Shown here: in pieces, positions 38,522 to 46,426 of the stretch
Layout: each line of letters opens with the position of its first letter
Position numbering within the stretch: the stretch's first letter is position 1
Origin: Candidatus Magasanikbacteria bacterium RIFOXYD1_FULL_40_23
GTDB taxonomy: Bacteria; Patescibacteriota; Patescibacteriia; Magasanikbacterales; GWA2-37-8
Direction: 5' to 3'
Assembly (NCBI GenBank): GCA_001783215.1
Contig: MFRA01000002.1
Coordinates: forward strand, 1-59,182
DNA: 59,182 bases
Notes under the pieces: generated by a model
Databases searched by the model: none
What the model was told of the DNA's origin: nothing
The model's input: only the letters and a program-made list of their open reading frames with translations
Program-made: the position numbers and the translations under genes

Positions 38522-40090
38522 CTAAACATCATGACCAGAGTATGACAAATTAAAACTCTTGTTTATCAAAGGAAAATCTGGAACCACATTGCCTTTACCA
38601 GCATAACCTAATACAGCCCAATTGATAAATGATGGATCACGCACATCTACTCTGGTGATTTGCCCTTCATTATCGGTAACCACAAAATAAAAAACTTCAC
38701 CTCTCCAACCTTCGGCCGAACCTACACCATAAGAATTTTTTCTTAATTCTACTTTTCCTTCAAAAACTAATTTTCCACTTGTTGGCATGCTAGCTAAAGC
38801 CTGTTCAATAATACTAAAAGAAGCAAAAATTTCTTTAATGCGAACATACAGTCTAGATCGCACATCACCATTTTTCTCTAAAGCTATATTAAATTTAATT
38901 TTGTTATAAGCAGCATACGGATAATCAATTCTTGAATCACTAACTATTCCCAAAGCTCTGCCGGCCACACCCAACACCCCGTGATCTGTAGCTATTTGAT
39001 AATCAAGTTGACCAGTACCTTCCAAACGATTTAAAAGCGAAGCGCTATCTTCAGAAATATCTATAAACTCGCGGAAATCTTTTTGGATTTTTTGCAAATC
39101 TTGAAGAAGTGCTTTAGATGTATCTGCAGAAATATCTTTGGTCACTCCGCCAATAGTATTAACACCGCGCAAAAATCTGCTACCAGTTAGACGTTCGTGC
39201 CATTGCATAATCTGCTCACGAAGACGAGTACCGTTGGCACCACCAAAACTAAAACCAGTATCTAACATTACAAAACCAACATCATTAAAATGATTGGCCA
39301 ATCTTTCTAGTTCGGAAAATATAACTCTAAGATACTTGGCTCTTTCCGGCACTTCGAAACTAGACAAACTTTCTATAGCCTGGCAAAAAGCCAGTGAGTG
39401 AGTAAAAGAAGTATCACCGGAAACTCTTTCTGATAATTTTACTTTATCTTGTAGTGGCAGAATTTCGAATAGTTTTTCTGTACCTTTGTGAACATAGCCC
39501 AATTTTGGCTCCAACAAAACTATCTCTTCGCCTGCAACACTGAACCTGAAATGTCCTGGCTCAATAATACCAGCATGCACTGGACCTACAGGGATTTCAT
39601 AAATACCCTCCCCTTCCACTGTTTGGAATTGGTAGGTATTGTGCGCCTCTTCTGGTCTTTGTTGCCAATTAAAATCTTTGCGTAAAGGAAATAAATTTTC
39701 TGGCCAATTTTCGTGGAGTATTAACGGTTTATGATCTGGGTGACCAACTGGTTCCAAACCAAAAAAGGTTTTAATTTTTCTTTCGTGCCAAGCTGCCTGC
39801 TGAATTTGTTTGGTAATAGAAGGAAACTCTTCTGTGCCAGACAAAGTTATGTACGGCACCAAAAAAACACTACTCCCCGGAACTCCAAATACATATAGTA
39901 TTCTAAATCTGCCGTGTTCTTTTCTTTCGTCAACGGCCGTAATGGTTTTGAGTGGTAATTTTTGTTCAAAATACAAAGTAGTAGCTACTTTTAAAATATC
40001 ACTAGATGGCACTTCATATATCAAAACATTACCGTCAGTTTTAACTTGATAGTTTTTGGAGATATATTTTTCTACTATTTCTTGATACAT
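38522..40090 (-). CDS. Ehr/HyfG(HycE)-like large subunit (NuoC+NuoD fusion) lacking NiFe ligands
   Basis: GPVHAGIIEPGHFRF, GYVHKGTEK, ELERLANH, EGWRGE; RVSGDTS replaces RxCxxC; SFNLSY replaces DPCxxC. Confidence 0.92.
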   Translation of the reverse strand: MYQEIVEKYISKNYQVKTDGNVLIYEVPSSDILKVATTLYFEQKLPLKTITAVDERKEHGRFRILYVFGVPGSSVFLVPYITLSGTEEFPSITKQIQQAAWHERKIKTFFGLEPVGHPDHKPLILHENWPENLFPLRKDFNWQQRPEEAHNTYQFQTVEGEGIYEIPVGPVHAGIIEPGHFRFSVAGEEIVLLEPKLGYVHKGTEKLFEILPLQDKVKLSERVSGDTSFTHSLAFCQAIESLSSFEVPERAKYLRVIFSELERLANHFNDVGFVMLDTGFSFGGANGTRLREQIMQWHERLTGSRFLRGVNTIGGVTKDISADTSKALLQDLQKIQKDFREFIDISEDSASLLNRLEGTGQLDYQIATDHGVLGVAGRALGIVSDSRIDYPYAAYNKIKFNIALEKNGDVRSRLYVRIKEIFASFSIIEQALASMPTSGKLVFEGKVELRKNSYGVGSAEGWRGEVFYFVVTDNEGQITRVDVRDPSFINWAVLGYAGKGNVVPDFPLINKSFNLSYSGHDV

Positions 40091-40091
40091 A

Positions 40092-41537
40092 CTAATAAAC
40101 TAAAGTTGCAGATGATATTAAAAATTTAATGGCGCCAGGAAATACAAAACCGGAAATCAGTAAAGCTACTGCCAACAGCACGATGGGAGCAACTAACCAA
40201 ACACTACCTTCTCCAGCAGTAATTTCTGAATCAGCTTCTCCAAACATCATAGCAATTACATGTCGAAGAAAACCAATAAACACTAGCCCAATACCTAATA
40301 ATGCAGCCATGGTTACTATTGGGTGGCTACCGATACCGGCAGATAAAATAGAAAGTTCGGTGACAAAAATACCAAACGGTGGCACACCAGTTACAGCCAA
40401 AAATCCAAGGATAAAAATTGCACCAGTTACTGGCAAAGTAGACATTACACCTCTTACATTTTTCATTTTTGTTGAGCTGTACTTTAAGAATATATTACCG
40501 GCTGCCAAAAACAACATTGATTTGGCTAGAGCGTGATAAACCATATGAAGCAGAGCTGCAAAGGCGCCCACTCCCCCAAAACCAAAACCTAAAGCCATTA
40601 TGCCTGCATGCTCAATACTAGAGTAAGCCAATAAACGCTTATAGTTTTTCTGCGCAAAAATGCTAAAGGCCGCCACAACTATAGATATTAAACCGAAAAA
40701 TACAAGCAAATCTTGAGAAAAATCTTTACCTACAGCAGAGTCAATAACTAATTTGAATCTTAAAATCGCCAAAAAAGCTACGTTTAGAAGGGATCCAGAA
40801 AATAATGCAACTACAGGCACCGGTGTTTTGCTGTAAGCGTCTGGGCGCCAGGTGTGCATAGGCACAAAACCAACTTTCGTACCGTAACCAATTAAAACAA
40901 AAATAAATGCCATCTTGGCTATAAACGGATCTAAGTTTGGACCACTTGCAAGCAAGTTACTCCATGTTATAAGTTCAGTATGACCGCCGTTTAAAGCTGG
41001 ATACAAGAAAAGCAATGTACCAAAAAATGCGAATAATAAACCTAGGGAGTTTATAATAAGATATTTCCAAGCGGCTTCCATGGCTGATGGTTTATTGTAA
41101 AAACCGATCAAAAAAGCAGTAGAAAGAGTGGTAGCTTCAATACCAATCCACATCAAAATAGAACTGGTAGTGGTAATGGCAAAAAACATTGCCAAAATAA
41201 ATAAATGAAAAAGAATAAAGTATTGTTTTATTTTTTTAAAATCTATAATCCCTTTGGCCATTTCTGCCTTAAGGTAACCAACAGAATACAAAGCAATTGG
41301 AAAACCAGTGGCAGCCAAAGTAAGCAAGACAATTGATCCCAAATAATCAACGGAGAAATCATGACCCCAAGAATATGATCCACTTTTTAAAACAGCCAAA
41401 ACTATCAAAATGGCAAAAATTAATTCTAAAGCCGAAGCAATGATTGCAATAAAATTTAACAAGCTTGTTTTCTTTCTGATTAACAGCGACAAGCCTGATG
41501 CGACAAATGGTATTGCTAAAATTAAAAATATATACAT
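40092..41537 (-). CDS. HyfF-like proton-conducting antiporter subunit
   Basis: Polytopic; EATTL, EAAWKY, GYGTKVGFVPMHTWRPDAY, KRLLAYSSIEH. Confidence 0.92.
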   Translation of the reverse strand: MYIFLILAIPFVASGLSLLIRKKTSLLNFIAIIASALELIFAILIVLAVLKSGSYSWGHDFSVDYLGSIVLLTLAATGFPIALYSVGYLKAEMAKGIIDFKKIKQYFILFHLFILAMFFAITTTSSILMWIGIEATTLSTAFLIGFYNKPSAMEAAWKYLIINSLGLLFAFFGTLLFLYPALNGGHTELITWSNLLASGPNLDPFIAKMAFIFVLIGYGTKVGFVPMHTWRPDAYSKTPVPVVALFSGSLLNVAFLAILRFKLVIDSAVGKDFSQDLLVFFGLISIVVAAFSIFAQKNYKRLLAYSSIEHAGIMALGFGFGGVGAFAALLHMVYHALAKSMLFLAAGNIFLKYSSTKMKNVRGVMSTLPVTGAIFILGFLAVTGVPPFGIFVTELSILSAGIGSHPIVTMAALLGIGLVFIGFLRHVIAMMFGEADSEITAGEGSVWLVAPIVLLAVALLISGFVFPGAIKFLISSATLVY

Positions 41538-41541
41538 ATAT

Positions 41542-42201
41542 TTACTCTTCTTTTAAGTTCTTCATCATACTCACATCGAGTGAGCCGAATTGTTTATAAA
41601 TCATAGATGCAAATACTGTTGCGATTATCACCCAAACCAAGATATCAAATACTATACCTAGTTGCGGACCGGCGTTCTGTTCTAATCCGGATAAGAAAGC
41701 AAAGGAAACAATTGCATTTTCCAAAGACAATATACCAATCATCTGAGACAAAGCACCTTTACGATTGATTATTACAAATACAGATATAAGCATGGTAGAG
41801 AGTGCCAAAAGCAGAGCGTTGAAATTTTCTTGAGAAAGAATAGATAGCGGTTGAAAAAAGCTAGAGAAGGTAAAAGCTGTCAACATAGCCAAAATTACCA
41901 AGGTCATTGGCCCGTTTAAATAGGTGCTTACGCTAAATTTTAGTTGGTGCTTGTTTATAAGATTGCGGAAGAAATAAGGCGCAACTATAACTTTAACTGC
42001 AAAAACTGAAAGCGCTACCAACATTAAAGTAAAAGATGATTCTTTTAGAGAAGAGTTGAACAACAAAAATGCCACGACAAAAGACTGGGCCATGTAAAGA
42101 AAAACTGCAAAAGAATTTTTCTTGGCAATGTTAATAAAAATAACGGAAGCAAAAATTAAAGCTTCTAAAAAAAATAAGGTTTGTGGGCTCTCAATAAACA
42201 T
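41542..42201 (-). CDS. HyfE-like membrane subunit
   Basis: Polytopic; VKVIVAP, QMIGILSLENAI. Confidence 0.85.
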   Translation of the reverse strand: MFIESPQTLFFLEALIFASVIFINIAKKNSFAVFLYMAQSFVVAFLLFNSSLKESSFTLMLVALSVFAVKVIVAPYFFRNLINKHQLKFSVSTYLNGPMTLVILAMLTAFTFSSFFQPLSILSQENFNALLLALSTMLISVFVIINRKGALSQMIGILSLENAIVSFAFLSGLEQNAGPQLGIVFDILVWVIIATVFASMIYKQFGSLDVSMMKNLKEE

Positions 42202-42203
42202 AG

Positions 42204-43139
42204 TTAAATAAAAATAATCAAACTAATAGCAATTACGCTCAAAATAAATGAGGTAAACAATAAATCCGGTAATCTAAAAAATCTAAACTTTGCGATACTA
42301 GATTCCAAAACCGCTATTAATAAACTTAACAATAAAACCTTGATAACAAACCATCCCAAAGCTGCCAAAATTGGCATTAACCCTACAGTAGTAGCAATTC
42401 CCCAAGGGAAGAATAGATTAGCGCCTAAAGCCAAAAATATTAACAATTTATTAGCCGCTGCCCATTCTACCAAGGCCAATCTTTTGCCTGAGTACTCCAG
42501 AATCATCGCTTCGTGAATCATGGTAAGCTCCAAGTGTGTGGCTGGATTATCAAAAGGAAAGCGAGCAGTTTCGGCCAACATCGCAATCAAAAACCCTGCA
42601 AAAGCTAACATTATAGGCATCATAGCCACAAGCGGAAAGGCAGATACAGCTTCTGATATTTTGAAAAGGTTGGCTGAATCAACTGCAAAAACTAAAGCCA
42701 ACATAGAAAATATCAAACCACCTTCTGTTAAAGAAGCCACTGTCATTTCTCGGCTTGAACCAAAACCACCAAAAGCACTACCTGTATCCATACCGGCCAA
42801 AGCCAAAAAGAAGGTGCTTAAAGCTAAAAGATAAACTATAACAAGTAAATCACTCAGGCTATTATTAGCAAACACTGTAGCAAAAAGCGGAATACTAGCT
42901 CCTACAATGACAGTAACTGCAAAGATAATGTATGGCGCAAATCTAAAAACCCAAGAGGCATCCTCGCTTATTACTTCATCTTTATGAAGCAATTTCCACA
43001 AATCGTTGTATGGCTGGAATATGCTAGCCCCTACTCTATTTTGAAACCTAGCCTTTATCTTGCGAATTACACCAACAAACAAAGGTGATAAGGCAGGTAC
43101 GAGTGCTAATTGAATTGTCCAAATAATTATTGAAGTCAT
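42204..43139 (-). CDS. HyfC/HycD (NuoH-like) membrane subunit
   Basis: RKIKARFQNRVG..QPY.DL.KL, GSSRE, RFPFD..THLELTMIHEAMILEYSG. Confidence 0.93.
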   Translation of the reverse strand: MTSIIIWTIQLALVPALSPLFVGVIRKIKARFQNRVGASIFQPYNDLWKLLHKDEVISEDASWVFRFAPYIIFAVTVIVGASIPLFATVFANNSLSDLLVIVYLLALSTFFLALAGMDTGSAFGGFGSSREMTVASLTEGGLIFSMLALVFAVDSANLFKISEAVSAFPLVAMMPIMLAFAGFLIAMLAETARFPFDNPATHLELTMIHEAMILEYSGKRLALVEWAAANKLLIFLALGANLFFPWGIATTVGLMPILAALGWFVIKVLLLSLLIAVLESSIAKFRFFRLPDLLFTSFILSVIAISLIIFI

Positions 43140-43147
43140 ATTAAGTT

Positions 43148-45193
43148 CTAAAAAGCCAAAAGTATCAATAAGGCAAATAAAGTTAAAAATATATACAAGA
43201 CATAAACATTCAAATTACCCAATTGAATTTTTCTAACATGCGCAGCCAAACGTGCTACTAAGGCCTGCAACGGTTTATACAGATTATTTAAATAAATATC
43301 TTCTATTCCCAAATGCACTGCACTGCTTTTGGCAAAGTAACGCATATCAGCATCGTGGTACTCCACGTCGGTTTGTTTGGTTGGTTTGAGCAAACCACGG
43401 AAAACAGTAATTATAGATCTAGAAAATCCAGTGGCAGTTATTTCCATTCTTCCATTTAAATTTGTACCACAATCCCAAGTGCGTTCAATCTTAATTTTTG
43501 CCTGTCTGTTTATAATTTTCAAAACAATCCATGCCAGCACAAGCGCAGCTACTATACTAAATAAAATAGTGGGCATAGACACTGTGGCAAACCCATCTTT
43601 TAAACTAAAGGCACCCGCAGCAGATGAAAACACAGGCTCGGCAAATCCCAAAGCTCTTACACTGCTGGCTACTGTTGCTAGTACAGAAGTAATATAACTA
43701 GCGAAGAACCCAATAACTAAAGTGAGTGCCGCTAAGATTGCCATAGCAATTCTAAGGGTGACGGCAGACTCTTTGGCATGCTTTGCCTCTTCACTTCTAG
43801 GTCTGGCCAAAAATATTGCGCCAAATGCTTTGACAAAACAAGCCGCTGCCAAACCACCTGTAAATGCCAACGAACCTGCACCTAACAAAAATACCCACTG
43901 TACGGAAACGCTTAAAGATTTGATACCATAAAAAAGAGATTGGAATGTTGCCCATTCACTAAAAAATCCATTAAAAGGCGGAAGAGCCGAAATCGCCATC
44001 GCGCCAACCAAAAAGAAGAAGGCGGTTTGTGGCATATGTTTTATTAAACCACCATATTCTTCCATATTTCTGGTATGAGTCTGAGAAATTACTGAACCAG
44101 CACCCATAAACAATAGGGCTTTAAAGGTTGCGTGGTTTAAAGTATGGAAAAGCGAAGCTACTAGCCCTAACACAGCTAATGATTTCATATCTGATGCCCA
44201 GAATACAAGCGAACTTCCCAATCCTAATAAAATAATACCGATATTTTCTATACTGTGATAAGCCAAGAGTCTTTTGATATCGTGTTCAGTAAGAGCATAA
44301 AGCACACCCAACAAAGAAGAGACTGATCCTATAACTAGAACTACTACCCCCCACCAAACTGGGATACCAGTCATCATATCCATAAAAATTCTGATAAACA
44401 TGTAGATACCGGTCTTGATCATAACTCCAGACATTAGCGCAGAAACATGAGTTGGGGCAGCGCTGTGAGCGCGAGGCAACCAAATATGAACTGGAATAAT
44501 ACCGGCTTTGGTACCGAAACCAATAAGCGCCAAAACAAAAACAAGGTTTTTTACCAAAAGAGAAACCTCTCCCATACTGTTTTTAATCACAGTAAAATCA
44601 AAGGATCCTGTAGACCTATATAGAAGCAAAAAGGCCATGATAATAAAAGCAGTACCTATATGAGTCATGATAAAATATAAGTAACCGGCTCGTAGATTAC
44701 TCTTTTCTTTGTTTTCAAATATAACCAAAAAGAATGATGCCAAAGACATTGTTTCCCAAACTACCAGGAAGAAAATGGCGTTGTGCGCACTGACAACCAT
44801 TAGCATGCCGGCCAAAAAAAGATTGTAGAAAAATCCAAGCGCACCGATATTGTATTTGTTATAGAAGTGTTTTACATATCCCAGACTATATATAGATGCA
44901 ACTAGAGCAATGAGGGATATTACAAAAATAAAAAAAGCGGATAATCTATCCACCCTAAACGAAACTGACAAAAGCGGAGCAAGCAAATCGAAGTTAAAAG
45001 AAAATACAGAGTTCTTTATAAGTACGGATAAAGAAGATACTAGACCTGAGATCGAACCAGATACTGCAAAAACGCTTCCTGCAACATTGGCCCACTTGTC
45101 GCTTTTGGCTAAAACCAGAGATCCTACAGCCCCGATTCCAAATAGCAATAAAGATATAAAAAATATAGTTGATGAAGAGATGGTAGTAAGCAT
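43148..45193 (-). CDS. HyfB-like proton-conducting antiporter subunit
   Basis: WETMSL, GFGTKAG..P.HIWLPRAH, KRLLAYHSIENIG, LPPFNGFFSEW, WDCG. Confidence 0.93.
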   Translation of the reverse strand: MLTTISSSTIFFISLLLFGIGAVGSLVLAKSDKWANVAGSVFAVSGSISGLVSSLSVLIKNSVFSFNFDLLAPLLSVSFRVDRLSAFFIFVISLIALVASIYSLGYVKHFYNKYNIGALGFFYNLFLAGMLMVVSAHNAIFFLVVWETMSLASFFLVIFENKEKSNLRAGYLYFIMTHIGTAFIIMAFLLLYRSTGSFDFTVIKNSMGEVSLLVKNLVFVLALIGFGTKAGIIPVHIWLPRAHSAAPTHVSALMSGVMIKTGIYMFIRIFMDMMTGIPVWWGVVVLVIGSVSSLLGVLYALTEHDIKRLLAYHSIENIGIILLGLGSSLVFWASDMKSLAVLGLVASLFHTLNHATFKALLFMGAGSVISQTHTRNMEEYGGLIKHMPQTAFFFLVGAMAISALPPFNGFFSEWATFQSLFYGIKSLSVSVQWVFLLGAGSLAFTGGLAAACFVKAFGAIFLARPRSEEAKHAKESAVTLRIAMAILAALTLVIGFFASYITSVLATVASSVRALGFAEPVFSSAAGAFSLKDGFATVSMPTILFSIVAALVLAWIVLKIINRQAKIKIERTWDCGTNLNGRMEITATGFSRSIITVFRGLLKPTKQTDVEYHDADMRYFAKSSAVHLGIEDIYLNNLYKPLQALVARLAAHVRKIQLGNLNVYVLYIFLTLFALLILLAF

Positions 45194-45197
45194 ATGA

Positions 45198-45734
45198 TTA
45201 GCGGTTTGTTTTATTGCTAGACTCTACTCCTTCCAAAATTTTAAGCAAGTTACAAAGAATAGTTTTGGGTGATGGCGGATCGCCAGGAATTTGGAAATCA
45301 ACTGGAATTACTTTGTCTACTCCATCTAAAACCGCATAAGATCCTTTAAATATTCCACCACTGATTGCATCGTCTCCTACGGCCACTACAATTTTTGGAT
45401 CAGGAGTGGCTTTGTAAGTACGAATAAGAGCCTCTTTCATGTTTCTAGACACTGGTCCGGTTACCATTAGCATGTCGGCATGACGAGGAGAAGCTACAAA
45501 ATGAATACCGAATCGCTCTACATCATAGTAGGCATTGGTGAGAGCGGTAAGCTCTTGTTCACATGCATTGGTAGAGCCGGCATCTACTTCTCTGATGGCT
45601 AGGGATCCATTAAATAATTTTTTAATTTTTGTTTCTAGCTGTTTTCCTATTACTTCAACACTCTCGTAGCCTAGAAGGTTCGTATCAATAACTGTTTTAG
45701 GGGTACAAAAAATTTTTTTATAAAACTTAAACAT
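45198..45734 (-). CDS. HyfI/HycG (NuoB-like) small subunit with degenerate Fe-S ligands
   Basis: DAGSTNACE, YDVERFG, SPRHAD, VGDDA, IPGDPP; likely start MFKF at 45734. Confidence 0.9.
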   Translation of the reverse strand: MFKFYKKIFCTPKTVIDTNLLGYESVEVIGKQLETKIKKLFNGSLAIREVDAGSTNACEQELTALTNAYYDVERFGIHFVASPRHADMLMVTGPVSRNMKEALIRTYKATPDPKIVVAVGDDAISGGIFKGSYAVLDGVDKVIPVDFQIPGDPPSPKTILCNLLKILEGVESSNKTNR

Positions 45735-45835
45735 ATTTTGAAATTTGAACAGATAAGGAACCATAGTACCTCGAACACCTATCTAAGGTGTGCGAGGCGC
45801 TATGGCAAGTAAAGAACTAATATGGTGCAGTCTAA

Positions 45836-46426
45836 TCAGGCTGCGCGACGGACGATGCCCGGGTGCTTGACCAGAATATCCGGTCGGAACTTCTGACACC
45901 AGGTCTCGAACTCGTTGGCCTTGAGATGCCGTGGATGGCAAGGATCGGTCTCCTGCTCTTTGACGTCGAAGATGATCGCCGCGTCAATCCCCATGGTGTT
46001 GAGCCATCGCTTGGCCACAACGAGTAGGGCCACATTGTGAATCAGGTCAATCCCGAACTTCTGGCCGCCCAGACACGGGTAGTGACCAATGAGAGTGGCG
46101 TGACGACAGCCATTGACTGTGGCCGTTTCCACGTTCAGATTCACCATTCCGCGATGATCGCACGTCTCGTGGATTGGTGACGAAGGCGCCACAACCAGTG
46201 GACCACCCGCACAAATAACCGGGAAAAGAGCCGGGAGGGCTCGCTCCTGCTTCTGCGCAGCATTTTTGTTGATAACATCCAACCACTGAGATACATAACG
46301 CTCGTCAAAACAAGAGAATACCAGTGCCTTTGAGGCCAATGGAAGGGTTTCAGGGTTAATTTCCCGAAGGACCCCAGCTTCTTCCCAGCTACCCACAAGT
46401 TGCTTTTCTTCGTTGCTGGTGAACAT
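45836..46426 (-). CDS. Beta-carbonic-anhydrase-like protein
   Basis: CFDER (CxDxR), AGG and HYPC (HxxC) zinc-site pattern; GAGGAGG SD; promoter TTGACC-N18-TATAAT at 46589-46560. Confidence 0.65.
   Translation of the reverse strand: MFTSNEEKQLVGSWEEAGVLREINPETLPLASKALVFSCFDERYVSQWLDVINKNAAQKQERALPALFPVICAGGPLVVAPSSPIHETCDHRGMVNLNVETATVNGCRHATLIGHYPCLGGQKFGIDLIHNVALLVVAKRWLNTMGIDAAIIFDVKEQETDPCHPRHLKANEFETWCQKFRPDILVKHPGIVRRAA

What the first reader, a model, noticed from the sequence alone, without database searches (positions are those of the whole stretch)
45198..45734. Small subunit has three of four [4Fe-4S] cysteines replaced (C to T, C to D, C to D)
Seen: GSTNACE instead of GSCxxCE, VGDDA instead of GxCA, and PGDPP instead of PGCPP, while the rest (YDVERFG, SPRHAD) is well preserved. 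Established: these Cys bind the proximal/N2 cluster in NuoB/HycG proteins. Inference: two separate C-to-D changes look like a remodelled site (Asp/Asp/Cys mononuclear metal or none) rather than decay, so the complex may carry no electron-transfer cofactor at all.
Basis: partly seen in the sequence, partly recalled or inferred. Interest (0 to 1): 0.75.

Follow-up and report, generated by a model that had tools for sequence, protein, structure and literature searches.

The report
Cofactor-free hydrogenase-like membrane complex
The small subunit of a hydrogenase/complex-I-like membrane machine has swapped its iron-sulfur-binding cysteines for acidic residues across a whole, strongly conserved bacterial clade, so the machine probably moves ions with no electron transfer at all.

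Summary
The gene lies on the minus strand (45764/45734..45198). Against HycG and MbhJ, cluster ligands 1, 3 and 4 read Thr, Asp and Asp.

It is a clade trait, not an assembly error. All 80 related genome loci and 214 of 329 aligned relatives have at most one ligand Cys. The six-gene order is kept, dN/dS is about 0.1-0.16, and both Asp codons are used at the Asp positions.

The remaining Cys is dispensable: it is replaced in 19 of 81 sequences, and 8 of 80 loci have no Cys. The replacements are selected for negative charge, net -2 or -3 in 208 of 214, never basic. They are not among the best-conserved columns. This fits a loose acidic stand-in better than a precise metal site.

The large subunit lacks all four NiFe cysteines, and the operon has no ferredoxin subunit. 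Membrane-arm Glu and Lys are invariant.

Best reading: a redox-dead Ehr-type complex working as an ion-translocating module. ATP synthase genes (10 of 66 loci) and a beta-carbonic-anhydrase-like gene (7 of 81) are recurrent neighbours. It is a new variant of a known kind. No structure could be modelled.

The parts
45198..45764 (-). NuoB/HycG-type small subunit without its [4Fe-4S] ligands. It is 188 aa from the ATG at 45764, or 178 aa from the ATG at 45734.
   Evidence: Pfam PF01058 at 2e-25. HycG 7z0s_G at 1.2e-31 and MbhJ 6cfw_J at 5.2e-30. It is the best conserved of the six operon proteins, 59-80% identical across 80 loci, with the lowest median pN, 0.245.
45570..45572 (-). Former ligand 1 (first Cys of C-x-x-C), now Thr (ACC).
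   Evidence: Alignment, codon. In 81 relatives: T 38, D 29, S 14.
45561..45563 (-). Former ligand 2, the one Cys retained (TGT).
   Evidence: In 81 relatives: C 62, E 14, A 3, P 1, V 1.
45369..45371 (-). Former ligand 3 (Cys of G-x-C), now Asp (GAT). The Asp before it (45372-45374) is ancestral.
   Evidence: In 81 relatives: D 67, G 12, A 1, E 1. The canonical neighbours have G-D-C-A.
45279..45281 (-). Former ligand 4 (Cys of P-G-C-P-P), now Asp (GAT).
   Evidence: In 81 relatives: D 77, N 4.
43148..45193 (-). HyfB/HycC/NuoL-type antiporter-like membrane subunit (681 aa).
   Evidence: NCBIfam NF005086 'hydrogenase 4 subunit B' at 691 bits against a cut-off of 667. HycC 7z0s_C at 3.3e-82. E147, K229, K260 and K358 are invariant in 66 sequences.
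42204..43139 (-). NuoH/HycD-type membrane subunit (311 aa).
   Evidence: Pfam PF00146 at 2.9e-47. HycD 7z0s_D at 2.9e-43. Many Glu, Asp, Lys and Arg are invariant in 70 sequences.
41542..42201 (-). HyfE-type small membrane subunit (219 aa).
   Evidence: NCBIfam NF008556 at 1.4e-17, below its cut-off. K70 and E161 are kept in 69 of 69 sequences.
40092..41537 (-). HyfF/NuoN-type antiporter-like membrane subunit (481 aa).
   Evidence: Pfam PF00361 at 2.6e-51. E134, K221 and K339 are invariant in 64 sequences. They align with the TM5 Glu, TM7 Lys and TM12 Lys of NuoL 8e9g_L (the helix names are recalled).
38522..40090 (-). Fused NuoC-NuoD/HycE-type large subunit (522 aa) without the NiFe ligands.
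   Evidence: HycE 7z0s_E at 3.8e-85. Its four NiFe Cys align with S224, T227, S516 and G519. S224, G225 and D226 are kept in 63 of 63 sequences, S516 in 62 and G519 in 61.
45836..46426 (-). Possible accessory gene: a beta-carbonic-anhydrase-like protein (196 aa) 72 nt upstream on the same strand.
   Evidence: No Pfam hit. ESM Atlas gives structural TM 0.54-0.57 to Pro_CA_2 clusters. The profile finds 7 members in 81 loci, each the ORF nearest to the operon on its side. Two members pass the PF20393 cut-off. The nine best PDB hits of the profile are all beta-CAs, with E 0.006-1.3.

Best explanation
The gene encodes the small subunit of a six-gene Ehr-type (energy-converting-hydrogenase-related) membrane complex.

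Shown: in this clade the proximal [4Fe-4S] site has been abolished. Ligands 1, 3 and 4 are Thr, Asp and Asp here, and ligand 2 (Cys) is dispensable in relatives. The large subunit has lost all four NiFe cysteines. No ferredoxin-type subunit is encoded. The whole complex therefore has no recognisable redox-cofactor site, yet all six genes are under strong purifying selection.

Inferred, on the site: the replacement residues are selected for negative charge and polarity rather than exact identity. Carboxylates at any two or three of the four positions stand in for the anionic cluster. A [4Fe-4S] with four thiolates carries -2 or -3, which is established chemistry. This would keep the fold and the electrostatics of the small/large-subunit junction that sits over the NuoH-type subunit.

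Inferred, on the function: with its Glu/Lys relay residues intact in the antiporter-like subunits, the complex works as an ion-translocating module not driven by electron transfer. Most simply it would be an Mrp-like cation/proton exchanger or gradient converter serving the F-type ATPase of these fermentative bacteria. The ex-redox arm would act as a cytoplasmic cap, gate or proton entry.
For: **Ligand loss.** The alignments to HycG and MbhJ show it. Patterns among 329 aligned relatives: 214 with at most one Cys and 97 with four.

**Clade trait.** The window groups with all 27 sampled loci in a clade of 31 rows, all low-Cys, SH-aLRT 98. All 80 loci are low-Cys.

**Selection.**
- Six-gene order is kept wherever enough DNA is held.
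- Median NG86 omega of unsaturated pairs is 0.164 (small), 0.116, 0.115, 0.106, 0.122 and 0.122, and median pS is about 0.8 against pN 0.25-0.37.
- Position 3 uses GAT 34 and GAC 33 times; position 4 uses GAT 45 and GAC 28 times.

**Cys is dispensable.** It is non-Cys in 19 of 81 sequences, and there is no Cys at all in 8 of 80 loci.

**Charge rule.**
- Net charge is -2 in 173 sequences, -3 in 35, -1 in 5 and 0 in 1, of 214.
- Among 24 distinct patterns, 48 of 86 non-Cys residues are acidic, against a 12.6% background, and none is basic.
- Where position 3 is not acidic (22 sequences), position 2 is acidic in 16. Where position 3 is acidic (192 sequences), position 2 is acidic in only 7.

**Repeated evolution.**
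- The AU test rejects one clade for all low-Cys rows (p 0.0138).
- P0148 (S,A,E,S) is 82% identical to a four-Cys protein but 59% to the window's clade. P0162 (E,C,E,D) is 75% against 60%.

**No other cofactor.** The large-subunit ligands are lost. The operon Pfam content shows no ferredoxin subunit. The conserved Cys columns are only small C58, HyfB C452 and C575, and large C236.

**Membrane arm intact.** Its charged residues are invariant.

**Context.**
- atpC lies on the same strand within 1.5 kb upstream in 10 of 66 loci that have that much upstream DNA.
- In L038 and L056 it lies convergent downstream.
Against: The ex-NiFe pocket of the large subunit is almost invariant: S-G-D in 63 of 63 sequences, and both the beta1-beta2 loop and the C-terminal motif nearly invariant. 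That is more than a mere cap would seem to need, and it hints at chemistry or proton handling there.

Mrp antiporters work without any NuoB/NuoD/NuoH-type subunits (recalled). None of the MrpB/C/E/F/G families was seen in the operon. The Mrp analogy therefore covers only the antiporter-like subunits.

The ATP synthase link holds for a minority of loci and is not present in this window.

Counts of sequences are not independent events. The charge and compensation patterns rest on a handful of lineages.
Confidence: 0.55

Rival explanations
1. The acidic pocket binds a metal cation such as Ca2+, Mg2+, Mn2+, Fe2+ or Zn2+ in place of the cluster, as a structural ion or as a sensor or gate.
For: Carboxylates are dense and never paired with a basic residue at the four positions. 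Further acidic residues nearby are invariant or nearly so: D51 (69 of 81), E59, E61 and D121 in the 178-aa numbering.
Against: The positions are among the more variable of a very conserved protein, ranking 106, 100, 91 and 59 of 128. Position 3 is Gly in 12 of 81 sequences and position 2 is non-Cys in 19 of 81. No fixed ligand set exists. No geometry could be modelled.
Confidence: 0.2
2. The complex couples ion flow to a non-redox reaction, most plausibly CO2/bicarbonate interconversion with the neighbouring beta-carbonic-anhydrase-like protein. This would be functionally analogous to DabAB or to NDH-1 with CupA.
For: - A Pro_CA_2-like gene abuts the operon in 7 of 81 loci, and in every case it is the nearest ORF on its side, rank 1 of 3-9.
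- In L038 and L056 it sits between atpC and the operon.
- L017 has DabA (PF10070, 1.3e-218) and a SulP transporter flanking the operon.
- The invariant ex-NiFe pocket suggests retained acid-base chemistry.
Against: It is a minority context: 74 of 81 loci show no such neighbour within 6 kb. Five of the seven members have no Pfam hit, and the PDB E-values are marginal. No fusion of a Cys-less small subunit to such a domain was found among 90 longer relatives. No binding evidence exists.
Confidence: 0.12
3. The site still holds an Fe-S cluster through non-cysteine ligands (Asp, Thr or water), so the complex remains a redox enzyme.
For: Single Asp ligands to [4Fe-4S] clusters are known in other proteins (recalled, not tested here). 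One Cys is kept in 62 of 81 sequences.
Against: Three non-Cys ligands would be needed. The last Cys is absent in 19 of 81 sequences, and 8 of 80 loci encode no Cys at all. Position 3 can be Gly. There is no electron donor or acceptor site elsewhere in the complex.
Confidence: 0.03
4. The operon is a decaying relic of a hydrogenase, and the substitutions are neutral debris.
For: CPR genomes are reduced and have lost many pathways (general knowledge; passages of PMC10633639).
Against: There are six intact genes in fixed order in every locus that holds enough DNA. Omega is 0.1-0.16 with saturated synonymous sites. The small subunit is 59-80% identical across many phyla. The same kind of replacement recurs in independent lineages.
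Confidence: 0.02

Closest known systems
[quoted passage not shown] 2020 (PMC7304191) and the Geobacter Ehr (EhrA-D, EhrL, EhrS)
   Same: It has a group-4-hydrogenase-like large subunit without the NiFe CxxC motifs, together with NuoL/HyfB-, NuoH-, HyfE- and HyfF-like membrane subunits and a small subunit. The CPR sequences were already reported as a monophyletic Ehr clade lacking the large-subunit cysteines (passages).
   Different: Here the small subunit has also lost its cluster ligands, and its gene comes first in the operon. A classical arrangement is seen beside it in L023: a NiFe-less large subunit (34% identical to the window's) and a four-Cys small subunit fused to a 2x[4Fe-4S] domain. 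The passages and papers I could search speak only of the large subunit.
E. coli formate hydrogenlyase and hydrogenase 4 (HycG/HyfI small subunit; PDB 7z0s)
   Same: These are the best solved-structure matches for four of the six subunits: HycG 1.2e-31, HycE 3.8e-85, HycD 2.9e-43 and HycC 3.3e-82.
   Different: FHL has the NiFe site, the proximal cluster and Fe-S subunits such as HycF (recalled). All the ligand sets are missing here, and no such subunit is in the operon.
Membrane-bound hydrogenase MBH (6cfw) and the sulfane reductase MBS (6u8y) of Pyrococcus furiosus
   Same: MbhJ matches at 5.2e-30, MbhL at 3.9e-42, MbhM at 2e-24, and MbhH at 7.5e-62 (HyfB-like) and 8.3e-30 (HyfF-like). The antiporter-like subunits share the Glu/Lys residues.
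   Different: MBH and MBS are redox-driven and keep the small-subunit cluster. They carry an Mrp-like sodium module that is absent here.
Mrp-type Na+/H+ antiporters (for example 7qru)
   Same: MrpA matches at 3e-45. Like the complex as read here, Mrp is redox-independent and moves ions through antiporter-like subunits.
   Different: Mrp has no NuoB-, NuoD- or NuoH-type subunits (recalled). The operon here shows no MrpB/C/E/F/G-type families.
Respiratory complex I, subunit NuoB/PSST with cluster N2
   Same: It belongs to the same Pfam family and shares the core motifs.
   Different: There are no N2 ligands. The large subunit has Gly where Nqo4 has Tyr87, and it has a hydrogenase-type beta1-beta2 loop. 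There is no N-module.
DabAB and cyanobacterial NDH-1 with CupA (energy-coupled CO2 hydration). This is a functional analogy only.
   Same: An antiporter-like proton-conducting subunit is encoded next to a carbonic-anhydrase-like protein.
   Different: No homology of the CA-like neighbour to DabA or CupA was shown. The neighbourhood is seen in 7 of 81 loci only.

Membership tests
NuoB/HycG small-subunit family (Pfam PF01058, Oxidored_q6) | Sequence match above the curated cut-off | tested here: met
   89.4 bits against a cut-off of 27. NCBIfam NF005012 at 122.6 bits against 116.
NuoB/HycG small-subunit family (Pfam PF01058, Oxidored_q6) | Four cysteine ligands of the proximal/N2 [4Fe-4S] cluster | tested here: not met
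   One of four is kept: T, C, D, D against C, C, C, C in HycG and MbhJ. The nearest canonical group has four Cys in 119 of 120 sequences.
NuoB/HycG small-subunit family (Pfam PF01058, Oxidored_q6) | Encoded with a NuoD/HycE-type large subunit and a NuoH-type membrane subunit | tested here: met
   They lie in the same operon. The arrangement is kept in all loci with enough DNA.
Ehr complexes (definition as quoted in PMC6349859, PMC4378227 and PMC10284858; the original paper was not held) | [quoted passage not shown] | tested here: met
   HycE matches at 3.8e-85. Its four Cys align with S224, T227, S516 and G519, which are conserved in 63 relatives.
Ehr complexes (definition as quoted in PMC6349859, PMC4378227 and PMC10284858; the original paper was not held) | Gene cluster with antiporter-like (NuoL/HyfB, HyfF), NuoH-like and HyfE-like membrane subunits | tested here: met
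Ehr complexes (definition as quoted in PMC6349859, PMC4378227 and PMC10284858; the original paper was not held) | Coupling of a cytoplasmic redox reaction to charge translocation (a suspected function, not established) | not testable with these tools
   No cofactor motif is left, which argues against redox coupling in this clade.
Group 4 [NiFe] hydrogenase (Hyc, Hyf, Mbh, Ech) | NiFe-binding CxxC pairs in the large subunit | tested here: not met
Group 4 [NiFe] hydrogenase (Hyc, Hyf, Mbh, Ech) | Fe-S relay: the proximal cluster plus a 2x[4Fe-4S] subunit | tested here: not met
   The proximal ligands are lost. No Fer4-type ORF or domain is in the operon.
Mrp-type cation/proton antiporter | MrpA/MrpD-type subunits with conserved membrane Glu and Lys | tested here: met
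   PF00361 occurs in two subunits. E147, K229, K260 and K358, and E134, K221 and K339, are invariant.
Mrp-type cation/proton antiporter | Small subunits MrpB, C, E, F and G | tested here: not met
   The six operon proteins give only complex-I/Hyf-type families in Pfam and NCBIfam. The HyfE-like protein has a weak NuoK-type match (PF00420, 5.2e-4, below its cut-off).
Respiratory complex I (NDH-1) | Cluster N2 and the quinone-site Tyr/His of NuoD | tested here: not met
   The N2 ligands are lost. Nqo4 Tyr87 aligns with Gly, and the loop is hydrogenase-like.
Energy-coupled carbonic anhydrase systems (DabAB, NDH-1 CupA), considered for mechanism only | A carbonic-anhydrase-type subunit encoded with, and bound to, an antiporter-like subunit | tested here: inconclusive
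   A CA-like neighbour occurs in 7 of 81 loci and is always the nearest ORF.

The most novel reading that the evidence does not exclude
This is a complex-I-type machine that has shed every redox cofactor and is powered, or gated, by non-redox chemistry at its remodelled cytoplasmic arm. Examples are proton-coupled CO2/bicarbonate conversion with the adjacent beta-carbonic-anhydrase-like protein, or acid-base chemistry in the invariant ex-NiFe pocket. It would work alongside the F-type ATPase as the missing element of membrane energisation in CPR bacteria.
Probability: 0.13. Interest if true: 0.9.

Novelty: new variant of a known kind. Interest (0 to 1): 0.62.

Why it matters
All well-studied members of the complex I / group 4 hydrogenase superfamily drive ion translocation by redox chemistry at the junction of the small and large subunits. 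A widespread clade under strong selection keeps that junction and the whole membrane arm, but has no site for any electron carrier. It was found in at least 80 species-level genomes here, out of 364 hits. This gives a natural 'redox-free' version of the coupling machine.

It would show what the Q-module-like arm does apart from carrying electrons. It would also offer a minimal system for studying the coupling path.

CPR/Patescibacteria lack a respiratory chain. In a cultivated Saccharibacterium (Southlakia epibionticum) the ATP synthase is dispensable, which the authors take to mean it is not the main driver of the proton-motive force (passages of PMC10633639). What energises or balances their membranes is therefore open. 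An ion-translocating complex often encoded next to the ATP synthase is a concrete candidate.

The repeated, independent replacement of cluster ligands by carboxylates is also a small lesson in how a metal site can be retired without losing the protein.

Tried and rejected

No model and no fold search could be made.
- Complex prediction (small + large + CA-like) was not available.
Names for the canonical relatives came instead.
- Marreiros et al. 2013 is not held. Coppi 2005 was not looked up.

**Analyses that led nowhere**
- Mutual information between the four small-subunit positions and large-subunit columns gave only lineage-linked pairs. I draw nothing from it.
- The promoter and terminator scan of the operon region was at shuffle level: 30 found against 23.7 expected, and 9 against 9.1.
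- The search for fused forms found 90 proteins of 330-2000 aa. Of these, 63 have four Cys and only two are Cys-less: P0449, fused to a NuoC-type domain, and P0466. There was no new domain.
- A first tblastn with the upstream 196-aa protein found no relative in any locus at E <= 1e-10. Only an iterated profile linked the seven neighbours.
- The Fer4 fusion is not the common ancestral state. Only 13 of 97 four-Cys representatives carry such a motif N-terminally.

**Corrections to earlier calls**
- The first dN/dS run had five rows mis-registered by upstream stop codons. It was redone. The position 4 codon counts include five such mis-registered rows.
- The regex motif count was crude for the middle motif. 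It is superseded by the alignment counts.

**Readings considered and rejected**
- Assembly error or pseudogene.
- An Fe-S cluster with Asp ligands.
Full report
**What is at the coordinates.** The finding lies on the minus strand. The ORF table also allows a start at 45764, giving 188 aa. The protein matches PF01058 (2e-25) and the NCBIfam NuoB subfamily above their cut-offs.

It is the first gene of a tight six-gene minus-strand operon:
- small subunit, 45764-45198
- HyfB/NuoL-like, 45193-43148
- NuoH/HycD-like, 43139-42204
- HyfE-like, 42201-41542
- HyfF/NuoN-like, 41537-40092
- fused NuoC-NuoD/HycE-like large subunit, 40090-38522

No ferredoxin-type (Fer4, NuoI, HycF) ORF or domain is present. 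The rest of the window is housekeeping and cell-envelope genes. The closest homologues carry Candidate Phyla Radiation (CPR)/Patescibacteria names, as do most related loci.

**The observation.** In the residue-by-residue alignments to solved structures, four positions line up. The structures are E. coli HycG (7z0s_G, 1.2e-31) and P. furiosus MbhJ (6cfw_J, 5.2e-30).
- The two Cys of C-x-x-C align with Thr and with the one retained Cys.
- The Cys of G-x-C aligns with the second Asp of G-D-D-A.
- The Cys of P-G-C-P-P aligns with Asp.

The codons are 45570-45572, 45561-45563, 45369-45371 and 45279-45281. That these four Cys hold the proximal/N2 cluster is established knowledge of these structures (recalled). 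The nearest canonical relatives are about 54% identical. They carry Acidobacteria and Handelsmanbacteria names where named. They have Cys at all four positions in 119 of 120 sequences, and they already have Asp before the third Cys.

**Not an artefact: a clade under selection.**

*Close homologues.* The 120 best homologues are 71-89% identical. In a crude motif count, 117 of 121 sequences have the G-D-D-A form and 119 of 121 have the P-G-D-P-P form.

*Genome loci.* A scan of one genome per GTDB species found 364 relatives. The best 80 loci are 59-80% identical, and all have at most one ligand Cys. Every locus that holds enough DNA keeps the same six-gene order, and the small subunit is the best conserved of the six.

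*Substitution rates.* Nei-Gojobori estimates on pairs with 0.05 < dS < 1.5 give these median omega values:

| Gene | Median omega | Pairs |
|---|---|---|
| small subunit | 0.164 | 36 |
| hyfB-like | 0.116 | 16 |
| nuoH-like | 0.115 | 26 |
| hyfE-like | 0.106 | 30 |
| hyfF-like | 0.122 | 22 |
| large subunit | 0.122 | 15 |

Over all pairs, synonymous sites are saturated (median pS about 0.8), while pN is 0.25-0.37 and lowest for the small subunit.

*Codon turnover.* Asp at position 3 is encoded by GAT 34 times and GAC 33 times. Asp at position 4 is encoded by GAT 45 and GAC 28 times, among 81 sequences. Five rows of that run were mis-registered, which affects a few position 4 counts.

*Phylogeny.* On an IQ-TREE tree of 90 rows and 114 columns, with the four trait columns removed, the window and all 27 sampled loci fall in one clade of 31 rows. 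All 31 are low-Cys, with SH-aLRT 98.

**What replaces the cysteines.** Among 350 distinct small subunits, 329 have residues at all four columns. Of these, 214 have at most one Cys, 97 have four, and 18 have two or three.

*Patterns.* The low-Cys patterns are T,C,D,D (138), D,C,D,D (23), S,C,D,D (12), S,E,G,D (11) and T,E,D,D (5), plus 19 rarer ones.

*Charge.* The net charge of the four positions is -2 in 173 sequences, -3 in 35, -1 in 5 and 0 in 1. No Lys, Arg or His ever occurs there. Counted by the 24 distinct patterns, 48 of 86 non-Cys residues are Asp or Glu, against 12.6% in the proteins overall. A further 20 are Ser, Thr or Asn, and 18 are small or hydrophobic.

*Compensation.* Where position 3 is not acidic (22 sequences), position 2 is acidic in 16. 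Where position 3 is acidic (192 sequences), position 2 is acidic in only 7. These counts are of sequences, not of independent events.

*The remaining Cys.* It is replaced in 19 of 81 sequences (E 14, A 3, P 1, V 1). Eight of 80 loci encode a small subunit with no Cys at all.

*How conserved the positions are.* The four positions are not the most constrained part of the protein. By column entropy they rank 106, 100, 91 and 59 of 128 core columns. I read this as selection for an acidic, polar filling of the former cluster cavity rather than for one exact ligand set.

*Charge of the lost cluster.* A [4Fe-4S] cluster with four thiolates carries -2 or -3 (established chemistry). The observed -2 or -3 therefore fits a charge surrogate. 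This last step is inference.

**The loss happened more than once.** Other low-Cys representatives lie among four-Cys sequences on the tree. An AU test rejects holding all 43 low-Cys rows together (log-likelihood lower by 73.4, p-AU 0.0138). The alignment is short, so this needs care.

Two cases are clear on identity alone:
- P0148 (S,A,E,S) is 82% identical to a four-Cys protein and 59% to the window's clade.
- P0162 (E,C,E,D) is 75% identical to a four-Cys protein and 60% to the window's clade.

The same kind of replacement (carboxylate or hydroxyl) thus recurs.

**The rest of the complex.**

*Large subunit.* It matches HycE best (7z0s_E, 3.8e-85). The four NiFe cysteines align with S224, T227, S516 and G519. 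Nqo4 Tyr87 aligns with Gly, and the beta1-beta2 loop is of the hydrogenase type.

*Ex-NiFe pocket.* This pocket is almost frozen in 63 relatives:
- S224, G225 and D226 are kept in 63 of 63 sequences.
- Position 227 is S or T.
- S516 is kept in 62 and G519 in 61.
- The loop and the C-terminal motif are nearly invariant.

*Cysteines.* Across all six proteins, only four columns are Cys in at least half of the sequences: small C58, HyfB C452 and C575, and large C236. The window's complex has six Cys in all. There is no room for a cluster or a NiFe site.

*Membrane arm.* It looks fully functional.
- E134, K221 and K339 of the HyfF-like subunit are invariant in 64 sequences. They align with the TM5 Glu, TM7 Lys and TM12 Lys of NuoL (helix names recalled).
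- E147, K229, K260 and K358 of the HyfB-like subunit are invariant in 66 sequences.
- The NuoH-like subunit keeps a long list of invariant Glu, Asp, Lys and Arg residues in 70 sequences.

**Context.**

*ATP synthase.* F-type ATP synthase genes (b, delta, alpha/beta, gamma, epsilon) lie directly upstream on the same strand in a subset. atpC is within 1.5 kb in 10 of the 66 loci that have that much upstream DNA, with gaps from -9 to 1098 nt, in several CPR phyla. It lies convergent downstream in L038 and L056. This is not so in the window.

*Carbonic-anhydrase-like neighbour.* The 196-aa ORF 72 nt upstream in the window (46426-45836) has no Pfam or NCBIfam hit. Other evidence points to a beta-carbonic anhydrase:
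- It shows the C-x-D-x-R and H-x-x-C pattern of beta-carbonic anhydrases (by eye; the pattern is recalled).
- The ESM Atlas places its model next to Pro_CA_2 clusters, with TM 0.54-0.57.
- A profile iterated over the flank ORFs finds seven members in 81 loci. Each is the ORF nearest to the operon on its side.
- Two members pass the PF20393 cut-off.
- The nine best PDB hits of the profile are all beta-carbonic anhydrases, at marginal E-values of 0.006-1.3.

*Other loci.*
- In L017 (Ca. Scalindua), DabA and a SulP transporter flank the operon.
- In L023 (Lentisphaerae), the operon sits between a second, more distant Ehr-like set and a four-Cys small subunit. The second set's large subunit is also NiFe-less and is 34% identical to the window's. 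The four-Cys small subunit is fused to a 2x[4Fe-4S] domain. This shows the classical state side by side with the derived one. It suggests that NiFe loss came before cluster loss.
- The operon also occurs in genomes too large to be CPR: a 3.08-Mb Victivallales chromosome (L037) and a 2.79-Mb contig (L010). It has therefore moved between phyla.

**How it most likely works.**

*Shown.* The complex has no recognisable electron-transfer cofactor site, yet it is maintained by selection with an intact ion-translocation arm.

*Inferred.* The carboxylates replace the cluster's bulk and charge at the junction of the small and large subunits. The complex translocates ions without redox drive. Most simply it is a cation/proton exchanger or gradient converter working with the F-type ATPase.

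*A bolder option.* The near-invariance of the ex-NiFe pocket and the carbonic-anhydrase-like and DabA neighbours keep this option open. Ion flow may be coupled to non-redox chemistry such as CO2/bicarbonate conversion. I give this about 0.12-0.13.

*Other readings.* A defined metal-cation site is possible but disfavoured by the variability (0.2). A surviving Fe-S cluster (0.03) and decay (0.02) are unlikely.

**Comparison with what is known.** This is an Ehr-type complex by the definition quoted in the papers I could read (passages of PMC6349859, PMC4378227 and PMC10284858). Jaffe et al. 2020 already reported a monophyletic CPR Ehr clade lacking the large-subunit cysteines, and concluded that it likely cannot interact with H2 (passages).

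None of the passages found in these papers mentions the small-subunit ligands. The same holds for the Geobacter proteomics paper, the complex I genome analysis and the AOA review. Seven full-text searches listed no paper that does by title or abstract.

The founding papers could not be checked. Marreiros et al. 2013 was not held, and Coppi 2005 was not looked up. The supplementary figure S6 of Jaffe et al. could not be checked either. Prior mention there cannot be excluded.

I therefore rate this a new variant of a known kind. The step from 'NiFe-less' to 'wholly cofactor-free', the acidic-replacement rule and its recurrence are the new elements.

**Limits.**
- No structural model could be made.
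- The closed metagenome and viral contig collections were not searched.
- Only flanks of 10 kb or less were available, so genome-wide co-occurrence was not tested.
- MAG taxonomic labels are as deposited, and some non-CPR labels on short contigs may be mis-binned.

Noticed in passing
window 45836-46426 (minus strand); also L034:7480-8196, L035:9275-9868, L038:17267-17605, L042:9225-9893, L056:17526-18110, L018:17367-18296: A divergent beta-carbonic-anhydrase-like (Pro_CA_2-like) gene abuts the operon in 7 of 81 loci. It lies on either side and either strand, and is always the nearest ORF. The window's copy has no Pfam or NCBIfam hit.
   Followed up: partly
L006, L011, L032, L039, L047, L054, L058, L063, L065, L078 (upstream); L038, L056 (downstream, convergent): The F-type ATP synthase operon ends just before the small-subunit gene on the same strand in 10 of 66 loci, or converges on the operon in two more. 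In L038 and L056 the CA-like gene follows atpC.
   Followed up: partly
L023:3399-9989 and L023:17232-17996: In a Lentisphaerae MAG, the Cys-less operon sits between a second Ehr-like set and a canonical small subunit. The second set is hyfB-nuoH-hyfE-hyfF-large, and its large subunit is also NiFe-less. The canonical small subunit has four Cys and is fused to a 2x[4Fe-4S] ferredoxin domain. It looks as if the operon was inserted into a classical Ehr operon.
   Followed up: partly
L017:7684-9636 and L017:17941-20511: In a Ca. Scalindua MAG, the operon is flanked by a SulP-family transporter upstream and by DabA downstream on the opposite strand. DabA is a probable inorganic-carbon pump subunit (PF10070, 1.3e-218).
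   Followed up: no
window 43148-45193 (HyfB-like), residues 452 and 575: Two cysteines are invariant in 66 of 66 relatives of a protein otherwise poor in Cys. C575 sits in a W-x-C-G stretch shared with E. coli HycC. Their role is unknown.
   Followed up: no
P0148, P0162, P0193, P0227, P0126 (representatives): Other lineages of the same small-subunit family have independently lost the cluster ligands, again replacing them with Ser, Asp or Glu. P0148 is 82% identical to a four-Cys protein.
   Followed up: partly
L009, L012, L013 (one MAG); L010, L016: One 'delta proteobacterium' MAG carries three near-identical copies on three contigs (dS 0.06-0.2). In L013 the tblastn matches to several operon genes are partial. 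This may reflect frameshifts or assembly errors.
   Followed up: no
L037 (3.08-Mb Victivallales chromosome), L010 (2.79-Mb contig): The Cys-less operon also occurs in genomes far too large to be CPR. These copies group with the CPR copies on the tree, which implies transfer between phyla.
   Followed up: partly
window 45734 versus 45764: There are two possible start codons for the small subunit. The upstream ATG has an AGGT four bases before it and the downstream one has none. Most relatives align from near the downstream start.
   Followed up: no
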